Shown in pieces: positions 34,819 to 42,420 of a DNA stretch of 64,000 bases (position 1 is the first letter of the stretch; every line of letters begins with the position of its first letter). Position numbers and translations under genes: made by a program. Source of the stretch: Callorhinchus milii (taxonomy: Eukaryota); assembly GCF_018977255.1 (NCBI RefSeq), contig NW_024704746.1:36270001-36334000 (forward strand), given 5' to 3'. Below the pieces are notes generated by a model that saw only the letters and a program-made list of their open reading frames with translations, searched no databases and had not been told where the DNA came from.

Positions 34819-37800
34819 ATGAAGGTGTTCGTAACAGTGTTGTTTTTTATTCACCTGACTGAATGTCTCATCAGGTACGTGGTTTACGATATTCTTTGGA
34901 ATCTGTAGAATAAAAAGAATATTTCTGTTAAGTATTTTATCTTAATCTGAATGGATGAAACCAGGGAACATGGACTTTATAACATTGCAACAAGACTGCT
35001 GTAGATTTGTCACTAGGGCCTTATTTCATTTTTTTTGAGATAGTGAACTGATTTCAGAACCCCAGAAAGCATCAAGCTGAGCCTCATTATTCCACAAACC
35101 ATGTGTAACCTCCCCTATCATGGATTTTATCCCATTCAATCTAACTCTGAAATCCAAAGATATTGAAGTAAAAATTTCACAACAGTCACCTTTCTCCACT
35201 ATTCAAACCTACACTCCTTTACCTCTAAACCGATTACCTCAGCCTCATCCCCAAATGTATCAACGGTGATTGGGCTTTCTGTGTATCTGCCCCCATTCTT
35301 TGGAACTCCATCCCAAAGTGCCTTCGACTTGCCCCTTCCCTCGCCTCCTTCAGTCAAGATCATTTTTCCTTCCCCATTTTCAGATCAAGTCTTAAGACCT
35401 TCTTCTTCGACTGTGCCTACGGCCAACTTCCCCCTTAAAATGTTTTTTGTTGTAATGATTTAATTCTAAAGGCTAAAATCAATGATTAACAGAACTCATA
35501 CTTCATAGAAGAGTATATTAATATCCTACCTGATAAACTACTGCATTTAAACTCCAGCTTTACAGAAAGTGATTGTTATCTCAGTATTCCAGGGTTACAA
35601 AGAAGAAGTATGTAACCCTGATAGATTTTTTCTCTTTATTTTTATTTTGTTTTATCTAACTGGGCATGATTTTTTAACAACGCTAACTATTTTAAAATTT
35701 TATATTGTTAATTATGTCATTTTTAAATGTAATTTGAGTGATTGTTATGCTTGTTTTTCTGAATCTTTTGTACGAATTTAAGCTTTCATGTATCATAATT
35801 GAAAGTGGACACTTTCCATAGATATTGGCTCATGTTGTGATTTCTAATACTAGTTGGAGACGGAGGGATATTGGTAGAATGGGGGATGGGCAATTCTGGT
35901 TGTAGAAATGTCGATGGAGATGTTGAGGAATGGGTTGGCTGTTTCCACAAATAGTCAACCAATAACGTTTTGGGTGGAGATTATAGGAAAGGGCTAAAGG
36001 CAAATGGGAACCAGAATAAAAAAAGAAACAGCTACTTGCATCTATCTGTAATCTTGCTCGAGAGTGTGGCATTCAACCAAAATCTGAATCTCTATTGAAG
36101 GATTCCTCTGACCCGTTTCAAGCCAATTAGAAAAGTCCTGAGAGAACGTGACCAACTGAAGGAATTTCTAAGACATCATCAATTTGAAGCTTTTGCCGAG
36201 AAATATCAAAGCTGCTACCCTTCTAAACTTGTCAAGACTCATGAGGGCACAGCGTTTGAACACTTATCAAATTATATGGATGTAAGCTATTGTTAATATA
36301 CAAACTTGTTTAATGAATAACCATGTGATATAACTCTAATTCCGGGGATGCACACCAACAAACGGTAACATTTTCATTATTAGTAATGATAACAAGAGAA
36401 AGGAGCCTCCTCCAATGTTCTGGTCAACAGTCCCCCAAATTAATCAGTTGCTCTTCTCTTTGCTGCTTGTGGAGTGTTATTGGTGCAGATTAACTGATGC
36501 ATTTGTACTTAATACAAGTAAGTTATAATGTAACTTATTTTGCAATGATTTTATGTGCAAAGTTGTGGTTTCAAATGCAAGTGTTGTCAATATTATTTAT
36601 TATCGCACAAGAAATGATGAAAACAAAGTACAGCACAAAGGATAGTGTATAGCATCGGAAAATTAAAAATTCATACTATATTTTATAACTGTGAAAGGCA
36701 TAATGTTAATTTTGTTGATGCTGTCCTTTTGTTTGGGGCTGGGCGTGCTCTAATTTCAAACATTGAACTGCATCTAACATCATTTTTCTTTTGTTTTGTG
36801 AGATACATGTTCAGACCTGGGCACTTTGATTGGAAGAAGCATTTTGATTTTTTTNGATATGTGCAAATTTCCTGTGAATGCTTTAAATGTTGCAAATTTC
36901 CTGCGAATGCTTTAAATGTTGCTGTTTTACTCAATTGTGCTTTTGTACAATTAGGCCCAATATTATGGAGAGATTGGTATTGGAACTCCTCTTCAGAAAT
37001 TTACAGTCGTGTTTGATACCGGCTCTTCTAATCTCTGGGTGCCCTCAGCCTACTGTATCAGTGAGGCATGCAGTGAGTAAAACCAGATACAAATGTATGC
37101 ATGTTTTATCATTTGAAATGACTTTTTTTCTGCGCTGTACTGCACTAGGTATAATCCCAACTATCAGAGTGCTTTCTAACTTTCCTTGCCACTTCAGTGA
37201 GAAGTAAAGCTGAATTCTAGCTGAATATTCTTCCCTCTCTCTCCTTGCTTGTTCTTATTCATGTGTGTATTTGTCATTTAAAAAAATCAAGGAATCCCAG
37301 TAAAGGAGTCCCAATTTGCCACTCCATTCATTGAGTAATACTGTTTGAAATTGTTACGTTTTAGTCCCTTTTGTCCGCACTACACAATCTGCGATCAATC
37401 TTTGCAACCCTATGATACTAATTCTTGTCCCTATGGGAAGGAAACCAAATGTTGCTGGTACGTATTGTTTTCTCTTTTGTATACAGAAATGCATGAACAA
37501 TTTAAATCCTTTCACTCCACAACATATGCTCCCAGAGGCAATCAGTTTTCCATACGATATGGTACAGGACAACTTGCAGGAGTGCTGGGTAAAGACATGG
37601 TCAGAGTAAGTTGGATTTTAATACAATTGAGGCCGACTTCCATGGTGAAAGGCATTCATACAAACAAACAACAGTGTGACTGAAACAATAACTGAAAGCT
37701 AAACCCTCTTATTTTCCTTTATTTATGAATGTGCCTGTCTCTCTTTATTTCTCTGTCTGAATTCAATGGGTTTTCACTGGCTTAAATGTGCCTATAACAT

Positions 37801-40800: not shown

Positions 40801-42420
40801 AACTTTGTGTGCTTTATAGCTGTAGTCTGAACCACAAAAACAAATTACAGCCATGAAATTGCTTCCATATTATCTTATTTTTTTTAAAAATACACATGTA
40901 CTACGAATTTAATGGGGGCTGCAAAGCATTGAGGTCCAAATAATTCCATCCAGTTAATGTGGGATGACATCCTTGTTGAGATGTCATCTTGAGTTCCCAT
41001 TGCAAATGGGTCAGGTGGAAATCTGCAGTTGGTATAGTAGAGCAGTGTTTTTTGAATTCTAGTGAAACATCTGTCACTGAAAAATTTGGTGGGGGGAATT
41101 TAACAATAAATTTATGGTGATTTTAGTCATGAAGTATTGTATTCCTTTGGGATTATGGTTCTTTGGTATTTCTGCGCAATTGTCTGCTGCGTTTCGCCCA
41201 CAAAATATACAGTCACTTCACTTTACAGTATATTCTGAGAAGTGCTTTGAGATGTCTCGAAGACGTGATAAGGCGCTATATCAAATGCAAAGATTATTAT
41301 TTTATTATTATTACTTGTACCCTGTTTATATTGCTGGAAGTAATGCTTTATGATTTCCAGCAGATAAGCAGGAAGCTGTGTTTACACTGCTTAATTCTTC
41401 ACTGAATTAGCCAGGCGTTGAGACAAGGATAAATTGAGAACATTTTAAAAAGTTAATTCTTATTTTATTTCAAGACATTGCTCCATTTTTGTGGTCTGAA
41501 TGTGTTCAATCTTTTCTTTTAGTTATATAATGTTGATGAATTTCACCTTTTTCTACTTTAATTATTCTAAAATGCAAAATGTGCTGATTGAGTTTTGTTT
41601 TTTCCATACATAATTAAAAATTTTCAATGTAATAATATAATAATCCTTGCATTTGGTATAGCACCTTATCATGTCTTTGAGACGTTTCAAAGCGCTTTGA
41701 TGTAACAATGTTAAGGTTGGTCAATTGTTTCCTAAAGAATTTGCAGGTTTAATCTTCTTAACTTTGAAATTGGGTACTCTGTAACACCTAACCATCCATT
41801 TCTCTCTGCTGATGTTCAGCTGTGTAAGAGGAATAGCTACACATTTTATTGAAGTACAGTATAGGTGTTAGTACTTTCTCCTACAAAATTCTACTCCATT
41901 ATATATCCAAGGATACACCATCACTTTGAAAAAGACTTTGACAAATCAAAACCTAAATGTTTAGGAAAGTTATTTAAATAGTGTGATGGTGTTTTCAAAC
42001 TGACTCCTTTCATCCATAATTTATTTCCTATTTGCCAGTATGTTGTAGACTGCAAAAGGATATCTAGCATGGCAAGTGTGACTTTTACTATTGGAGAAGT
42101 GGAATTTTCATTAAGTCCAAACGATTATGTGAAAAAGGTAGGATTTGTAATTGTATTTACAATTTTTATTGATGAATGAACCAAAATTCCTCTGTGGATT
42201 ATGCTATATTATCTAGGGTTTTAAACAGCATTTGTTTTTCTTTATTTTATACAAGTTTCAAGGTGATCACTCACTGTGCCTAAGTGGCTTCCAGGAAATG
42301 GATATGGTGACCAGGGCAGGACCATTATGGATTCTGGGAGATGTTTTTCTTACAAAATTCTACACCATTTTTGACCGGGGAAATGATCGAGTGGGATTTG
42401 CCAGATCTCATCCTGTTTGA
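34819..42420 (+). CDS. nots: Nothepsin (cathepsin E-like pepsin-family aspartic protease), 9 exons, 401 aa
   Basis: Exons 34819-34874, 36101-36281, 36955-37072, 37487-37605, 38176-38375, 38615-38737, 40359-40503, 42039-42137, 42256-42420 sum to 1206 nt. Signal peptide [16 protein letters not shown], propeptide [17 protein letters not shown], catalytic [13 protein letters not shown] and IVDTGTSLI, flap [21 protein letters not shown]. The KYQSCYP segment resembles nothepsins. The family call is firm; the nothepsin orthology is inferred. Confidence 0.88.
36858..36923 (+). repeat. 29-bp tandem duplication just before nothepsin exon 3
   Basis: tgcaaatttcctgtgaatgctttaaatgt followed by tgcaaatttcctgcgaatgctttaaatgt. 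Confidence 0.85.
39525..39878 (+). mobile_element. Deu-type SINE in nothepsin intron 6
   Basis: Head cacctctgagtcaaagattatgggttcaagcccc and tail aaatgcaaggattactattatt. Confidence 0.75.
39994..40310 (+). mobile_element. Full-length young tRNA-derived SINE
   Basis: ggagtcctgtagctcagtggttagagcactcgc...gacgtcctcccgacgtgaaaagcgctatatca...(tta)n. Confidence 0.92.

What the first reader, a model, noticed from the sequence alone, without database searches (positions are those of the whole stretch)
34819..42420. Intact nothepsin-like aspartic protease inside the FRS2-CCT2-LRRC10-BEST3 block
Seen: a complete 9-exon, 401-aa pepsin-family gene with a signal peptide and both DTG catalytic motifs. It lies head-to-head with LRRC10 and tail-to-tail with BEST3. 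The ORF track shows it only as fragments. Known: in humans LRRC10 and BEST3 are neighbours with no protease between them, and nothepsin is a liver-expressed, female-biased protease of egg-laying vertebrates linked to vitellogenesis. Inference: a copy in a probable chondrichthyan would date nothepsin and this genomic address to the jawed-vertebrate ancestor. It would also mark where to look for pseudogene remnants in therian mammals.
Basis: partly seen in the sequence, partly recalled or inferred. Interest (0 to 1): 0.7.

Follow-up and report, generated by a model that had tools for sequence, protein, structure and literature searches.

The report
Elephant shark nothepsin, already described
This is an intact, spliced gene for nothepsin, a pepsin-family protease already annotated and published for the elephant shark, which likely works as an estrogen-induced liver enzyme that helps process egg yolk, so the finding is real but largely known.

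Summary
Confirmed and correctly named, but already known. Nine exons (34819-42420, +) give a 401-aa pepsin-family preproenzyme with both DTG aspartates. It is identical to a record named Callorhinchus milii nothepsin. All 8 introns are bridged by spliced contigs. In my tree it sits in the nothepsin clade (100/99), and grouping it with cathepsin E is rejected (p-AU 5e-5). Nagasawa & Inokuchi 2026 (PMC13389413) already list this protein, show nothepsin synteny in cartilaginous fishes, date it to the jawed-vertebrate ancestor and report its loss in therians; therian pseudogenization was stated in 2010 (PMC2865498). Two extras I did not find in print. (1) Three near-consensus estrogen-response elements lie upstream, one beside a TATA box (0.19 expected). 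3 of 4 vitellogenin genes in this genome have one; the cathepsin D and renin loci have none. (2) The block MDM2-FRS2-nothepsin mirrors MDM4-FRS3-[cathepsin E/pepsinogen slot], which suggests nothepsin and the pepsin lineage split by whole-genome duplication. Tissue, sex bias and substrate were not tested. The scan's notes held no nothepsin finding.

The parts
34819..34874 (+). nothepsin exon 1 (start codon, predicted signal peptide)
   Evidence: joint to exon 2 in run X5
36101..36281 (+). exon 2 (A1 propeptide; Cys57 in the column of the cathepsin E N-terminal cysteine)
   Evidence: contigs
36955..37072 (+). exon 3 (first catalytic Asp100, DTGS)
37487..37605 (+). exon 4 (flap Tyr143)
38176..38375 (+). 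exon 5 (single N-glycosylation sequon, Asn161)
38615..38737 (+). exon 6 (extra Cys244, absent from the other 24 nothepsin rows)
40359..40503 (+). exon 7 (second catalytic Asp285, DTGT)
42039..42137 (+). exon 8
42256..42420 (+). exon 9 coding part to stop; spliced contigs continue to 42584-42594; AATAAA at 42476 and 42644
34714..34726 (.). proximal ERE-like palindrome (1 mismatch), 92 bp before the ATG and 9 bp before a TATAAA
   Evidence: not in a repeat among 372 kb searched
34736..34741 (+). TATAAA, candidate TATA box (start site not mapped)
33653..33665 (.). ERE-like palindrome (1 mismatch)
30940..30952 (.). ERE-like palindrome (1 mismatch), nearer LRRC10 (2 kb) than nothepsin (3.9 kb)
28055..28876 (-). 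LRRC10, single coding exon, 273 aa (neighbour)
43771..50311 (-). 3' part of a bestrophin gene (BEST3 by position); last coding exon 43771-44616 (neighbour)
3605..5757 (+). 3' exons of FRS2 (neighbour)
19720..19917 (+). an exon of CCT2 (TCP-1 beta; neighbour)

Best explanation
This is the intact, spliced nothepsin gene of the elephant shark, and it likely works as an estrogen-induced liver protease that is secreted as a zymogen, carried to the oocyte and would help cathepsin D cut yolk precursors. SHOWN here: gene structure, splicing, intact catalytic residues, nothepsin orthology, single copy in the genome searches, and ERE-like sites upstream. INFERRED from the family: signal peptide removal, acid activation by loss of the prosegment, two-aspartate hydrolysis. 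INFERRED from orthologues plus the ERE-like sites: estrogen-receptor-driven liver expression in females and delivery to yolk. NOT SHOWN in any paper I read: the substrate. Confidence about 0.98 for identity, about 0.7 for estrogen induction in this species, about 0.55 for yolk processing as the main job.
For: Spliced product = P0001, named nothepsin. Tree of 59 rows: query sister to 6 elasmobranch rows (100/99) inside a 25-row nothepsin clade (100/99), apart from cathepsin E and pepsinogens. AU tests on 24 of those rows reject query+CTSE (p=5e-5) and query+CTSE+pepsinogens (p=1e-17). The query has the nothepsin residue at 4 of 5 nothepsin-typical columns. ERE-like sites with <=1 mismatch: 3 in the 5942-bp LRRC10-nothepsin gap against 0.19 expected from 12 sites in 380 kb of this genome (Poisson P about 0.001); 12 of 1064 background 350-bp tiles hold one. 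Positive control: 3 of 4 vitellogenin genes have one 303-343 bp before the ATG, and the fourth has a 2-mismatch site. Negative control: none in the 50 kb fetched at the cathepsin D and renin loci. Orthologues: 35-fold up in laying-hen liver and present in yolk (PMC3495648), 77-87-fold up in vitellogenic or estradiol-treated zebrafish liver (PMC2678157), >4475-fold estradiol induction in trout (PMC4556936).
Against: No tissue or sex is on record for the runs, which are only guessed to be RNA. Spliced contigs appear in 6 of 7 runs laid, which does not suggest strict restriction to female liver; contig depth ranges from about 6 to about 7000, but the tool says it measures expression poorly. Over the whole window the ERE count is only marginal (4 against 1.29; 5 of 100 shuffles reach it), and at <=2 mismatches the upstream region is unremarkable (4 against 1.75). 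A motif is not binding. The query carries the cathepsin E residue at 3 of 19 CTSE-typical columns, and its best solved relative is human cathepsin E. PMC13389413 says the physiological role is largely unknown; PMC3495648 only proposes the yolk role.
Confidence: 0.7

Rival explanations
1. A nothepsin by descent that works in this stomachless fish mainly as a broadly expressed endosomal protease, standing in for the lost cathepsin E.
For: Spliced contigs in 6 of 7 runs. No intact cathepsin E or pepsinogen found in the genome (also PMC13389413). It shares the N-terminal cysteine column with all 13 cathepsin E rows.
Against: ERE-like sites like those of the vitellogenin genes. Orthologues in teleosts, which also lack cathepsin E per PMC13389413, are estrogen-induced liver genes.
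Confidence: 0.2
2. Estrogen-induced and liver-made, but acting in the hepatocyte or in plasma (turnover of vitellogenin or lipoprotein), or only later in the embryo, and not during yolk deposition.
For: No direct substrate evidence in the passages read.
Against: The chicken orthologue is reported in egg yolk proteomes (PMC3495648); the N-terminus looks like a signal peptide.
Confidence: 0.15
3. It is the elephant shark cathepsin E, as an older automatic name says.
For: One source names P0001 'PREDICTED: cathepsin E'. The best PDB match is cathepsin E.
Against: Tree and AU test. A shark (Heptranchias) has separate proteins in both clades. The cathepsin E slot next to the FRS paralogue on contig C19 shows no protease match in 180 kb.
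Confidence: 0.01
4. A pseudogene or a chance chain of exons.
For: None found.
Against: Open 401-codon frame, all catalytic residues present, spliced contigs across all 8 introns.
Confidence: 0.005

Closest known systems
Nothepsin (nots) of Callorhinchus milii, NP_001279618.1 / UniRef A0A4W3KIP1; row CalmilNot in Table S1 of PMC13389413
   Same: The same protein: 401/401 to P0001 and 400/401 to NP_001279618.1. The paper's Table S2 lists an elephant shark cpsf6-ptprb interval for nothepsin and names frs2, cct2, lrrc10, best3 and rab3ip in the intervals of other species.
   Different: Nothing in the coding sequence beyond one residue. The main text of that paper has no 'promoter', 'ohnolog', 'paralogon' or 'two rounds'.
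Nothepsins of teleosts, birds, reptiles, amphibians and echidna (often labelled cathepsin E-like)
   Same: One clade, 50-69% identity, shared prosegment F..Y..C pattern.
   Different: Estrogen induction and liver expression are measured in zebrafish, trout and hen, but only inferred here. The extra Cys244 occurs only in the query among 25 rows.
Cathepsin E (PDB 1TZS) and pepsinogens A/C
   Same: Sister group (100/100), same domain set, same catalytic motifs. Cys57 aligns with the cathepsin E N-terminal cysteine (its dimer role is recalled, not from a call).
   Different: Separate clade; CTSE residue at only 3 of 19 CTSE-typical columns; different locus (beside FRS2, not the FRS3-RAB7B slot).
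Cathepsin D and renin of the same genome (G000 C17, C19)
   Same: Matching exon breaks by tblastn.
   Different: Outside the nothepsin/CTSE/pepsinogen clade; no ERE-like site in 50 kb.

Membership tests
Pepsin family A1 (Pfam PF00026) | Full Asp domain with two D[TS]G catalytic motifs and flap tyrosine | tested here: met
   PF00026 E=6e-113 over model 1-314; Asp100, Asp285, Tyr143
Pepsin family A1 (Pfam PF00026) | Signal peptide and A1 propeptide | tested here: met
   PF07966 E=3e-9; hydrophobic N-terminus by hydropathy only
Pepsin family A1 (Pfam PF00026) | Acid proteolytic activity, pepstatin inhibition | not testable with these tools
   needs enzyme assay
Nothepsin | Monophyly with named nothepsins | tested here: met
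   100/99
Nothepsin | Locus among frs2, cct2, lrrc10, best3 | tested here: met
   for this window; other species only from Table S2 of PMC13389413; BEST3 paralogue label by position
Nothepsin | Transcribed and spliced as 9 exons | tested here: met
   (contigs of runs guessed to be RNA; GT..AG joints)
Nothepsin | Female-liver, estrogen-induced expression | tested here: inconclusive
   ERE-like sites with controls; tissue and sex of runs not on record
Nothepsin | Presence in plasma or yolk; cleavage of yolk precursors | not testable with these tools
   needs proteomics and assay
Cathepsin E | Monophyly with CTSE | tested here: not met
   AU p=5.2e-5
Cathepsin E | Locus between frs3 and rab7b (per PMC13389413) | tested here: not met
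   gene lies by FRS2 on C5; the FRS paralogue with an adjacent RAB exon is on C19
Cathepsin E | N-terminal cysteine used for the disulfide dimer (role recalled) | tested here: met
   Cys57 in the same column as 13 of 13 CTSE rows and 24 of 24 other nothepsin rows; absent in the pepsinogen, CTSD and renin rows. Dimer formation not tested
Pepsinogen A/C | Monophyly with pepsinogens | tested here: not met
   pepsinogens form their own clade 100/99; AU p=1e-17 for query+CTSE+pepsinogens

The most novel reading that the evidence does not exclude
Nothepsin and the ancestor of cathepsin E and all pepsinogens are whole-genome-duplication twins (MDM2-FRS2-nothepsin against MDM4-FRS3-ctse/pepsinogen). 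One copy was wired to estrogen response elements for yolk supply before chimaeras split from other jawed vertebrates, and the other founded stomach digestion.
Probability: 0.45. Interest if true: 0.5.

Novelty: already known. Interest (0 to 1): 0.2.

Why it matters
The gene, its name, its chondrichthyan presence, its synteny and its therian loss are in print, so the finding itself adds little. What remains useful is testable. The proximal ERE-like site gives a direct reporter test of whether estrogen control of nothepsin is as old as jawed vertebrates, and could make it an estrogen-exposure marker in cartilaginous fishes. The paralogous blocks suggest that the pepsin lineage began with a genome duplication that also produced a yolk protease, where the 2026 survey stresses tandem duplication.

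Tried and rejected
No run is on record as RNA; the kind is a guess. Run X3 showed no spliced nothepsin contig; a hole proves nothing. The apparent TA..CC joint at intron 2 is explained by a one-letter difference next to the acceptor; X4 gives the exact boundaries. Contig depth was not used to rank tissues. ERE scan at <=2 mismatches: no excess; the site at 12517 lies in a repeat and was set aside. The Pfam Sec2p search for RAB3IP paralogues found nothing and is uninformative. The NDT80/MYRF family hit only C17, so no pair with C5 was shown. No cathepsin E or pepsinogen remnant in 180 kb around the FRS paralogue on C19 (best E 0.11). Exact look-up of the LRRC10 protein failed. The Atlas gave nothing for the bestrophin tail. 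Paper searches for a paralogon or ohnologue treatment, a nots ERE, chimaera liver/vitellogenin/cathepsin and therian remnants found no paper on these points. Borrelli 2006, Castro 2013 and Kageyama 2002 are not held and may cover them. No citation for the cathepsin E dimer cysteine was found in the one review opened. No structure or complex was predicted; sequence homology to 1TZS made it unnecessary. Earlier scan notes concerned other proteases.

Full report
Observation. The gene is as described. Nine exons on the + strand from 34819 to 42420, all introns GT..AG with phases 2,0,1,0,2,2,0,0, give 401 codons and a stop. Exons 2-9 each hit Pfam A1_Propeptide or Asp in model order. The whole protein matches PF00026 at E=6e-113, with Asp100, Asp285 and flap Tyr143 intact and a hydrophobic N-terminus. 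Contigs from public runs (guessed RNA, two studies) bridge every intron: intron 1 in X5, and exons 2-9 in a single X4 contig. Six of the seven runs laid hold spliced pieces; X3 does not. The BEST3 label is by position only.

Identity. A search with exon 5 returned a 401-aa protein named Callorhinchus milii nothepsin. My spliced product equals it at every residue and differs from RefSeq NP_001279618.1 'nothepsin precursor' at one. Because database names are mixed ('cathepsin E-like' for many orthologues), I built a tree of 59 rows. I picked 57 by hand from the proteins for taxon spread, leaving out most near-duplicates, fusions and fragments, and added two paralogues of this genome. The query is sister to six shark and ray proteins (100/99) inside a 25-row nothepsin clade (100/99) that includes gar, coelacanth, lungfish, frog, turtle, bird and echidna. 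Cathepsin E (13 rows) and pepsinogens (7 rows) form the sister group (LG+G4, no mixture model; napsin is represented by one long unnamed row). On 24 of the rows, AU tests reject query+CTSE (p=5e-5) and query+CTSE+pepsinogens (p=1e-17). Genome searches found this locus, a cathepsin D (C17), a renin (C19) and weak BACE-like hits, but no second nothepsin and no intact cathepsin E or pepsinogen (only the best candidates are scored).

What is known. PMC13389413 (2026; I read parts 1-3 of 7 of the text, term searches, Table S2 part 2 of 3 and search hits in the supplements; Fig. S6 is a picture I could not see) lists this protein as CalmilNot. [quoted passage not shown] PMC2865498 (passages) says NOTS is pseudogenized in metatherians and eutherians. 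The only mammal among the best 120 hits was echidna; that capped list is consistent with the loss but does not prove it.

Mechanism. By family knowledge the product is a preproenzyme activated in acid by loss of its prosegment. Orthologues are among the most estrogen-induced liver genes: 35-fold in laying hens and found in yolk (PMC3495648, passages), 77-87-fold in zebrafish (PMC2678157, passages), over 4475-fold in trout (PMC4556936, passages). A role in processing yolk precursors is proposed there but not shown. To ask whether this regulation may hold here, I scanned for the recalled palindrome GGTCAnnnTGACC. Three sites with one mismatch lie in the 5942-bp gap between LRRC10 and nothepsin (30940, 33653, 34714), the last 9 bp before a TATAAA and 92 bp before the ATG. 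None is in a repeat. Background in 380 kb of this genome is 12 sites, so 0.19 are expected (P about 0.001). Three of four vitellogenin genes carry such a site 303-343 bp before their ATG, and the fourth has a two-mismatch site. The cathepsin D and renin loci have none in 50 kb (renin exon 1 was not located). Against: the whole-window count is marginal (5 of 100 shuffles), the two-mismatch threshold shows no excess, transcripts appear in most runs, and tissue and sex are unknown. I put estrogen induction at about 0.7 and yolk processing as the main job at about 0.55. Cys57 aligns with the N-terminal cysteine of all 13 cathepsin E rows and all other nothepsins. Since that residue links cathepsin E dimers (recalled), nothepsin may also be a disulfide dimer; this is untested.

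Origin. In this genome MDM2 (C5 36.13 Mb) precedes FRS2, LRRC10, nothepsin and a bestrophin. Contig C19 carries renin (1.66 Mb), an MDM2/4-family gene (2.37 Mb), the only other FRS gene found (2.62 Mb, same strand) and, 12 kb on, a RAB exon, with no protease match in 180 kb. PMC13389413 places the shark ctse-pga-pgc cluster between frs3 and rab7b and reports its loss in elephant shark. In this genome, both nothepsin and that empty slot lie just 3' of an FRS gene. Contig C17 holds two bestrophins (4.08-4.10 Mb), a MYRF-family hit (4.17 Mb), the only other LRRC10-like gene (4.87 Mb) and cathepsin D (5.24 Mb). The labels FRS3, MDM4, LRRC10B and RAB7B are by elimination or recall. Together with the sister relationship in the tree and the reported absence of ctse and pepsinogens in jawless fishes, this suggests that nothepsin and the ctse/pepsinogen ancestor arose by whole-genome duplication. 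Only two neighbour pairs (FRS, MDM) link C5 and C19, and no dated trees were made, so this is a lead. The 2026 paper's main text lacks the terms ohnolog, paralogon, two rounds and promoter, and searches found no treatment. Three relevant papers were not held, so I cannot say it is unpublished.

Verdict. Real, correctly interpreted, already known. Interest 0.2. The promoter sites and the paralogous blocks are modest, testable additions.

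Noticed in passing
window 40766-43770: Run X3 has a spliced bestrophin contig reaching down to 43310, plus unspliced contigs at 42004-42979, 41484-41839 and 40766-41213 (depth 12-34), and no cover on nothepsin exons 2-6. This may be a ~3 kb bestrophin 3' UTR overlapping nothepsin exons 8-9 in antisense. One run; contigs show no strand.
   Followed up: partly
window 38615-38737 (exon 6), residue 244: An extra cysteine found in none of the other 24 nothepsin rows; possible free thiol.
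   Followed up: no
G000:C5:15.54 Mb and 16.82-16.86 Mb (L026-L029): Four vitellogenin genes, each with a GGTCAnnnTAAC-type imperfect ERE 300-343 bp before the ATG.
   Followed up: partly
G000:C19:1.65-1.67 Mb (L002, L003): Renin-like gene: the exons matching the first three quarters of the protein lie on +, the last two on -, about 8 kb away. This suggests a local inversion or misassembly.
   Followed up: no
G000:C17:4.08-4.10 Mb: Two tandem bestrophin genes near a MYRF-family hit, an LRRC10-like gene and cathepsin D; a third block paralogous to the window.
   Followed up: partly
proteins P0002-P0025 and others: Many shark, lungfish, amphibian, reptile, bird and echidna proteins labelled 'cathepsin E(-like)' fall in the nothepsin clade; a widespread naming error, noted for teleosts in PMC13389413.
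   Followed up: yes
P0018: A Narcine bancroftii record of 718 aa has the nothepsin-like part only in its C-terminal half; possibly a fused gene model.
   Followed up: no
window 39990-40260, 41180-41300, 43030-43340: Copies of a very abundant short interspersed repeat in introns 6 and 7 and downstream of the gene; they dominate contig depth.
   Followed up: no
window 26990-27250: GC-rich short tandem repeat between CCT2 and LRRC10 giving spurious proline-rich ORFs.
   Followed up: no
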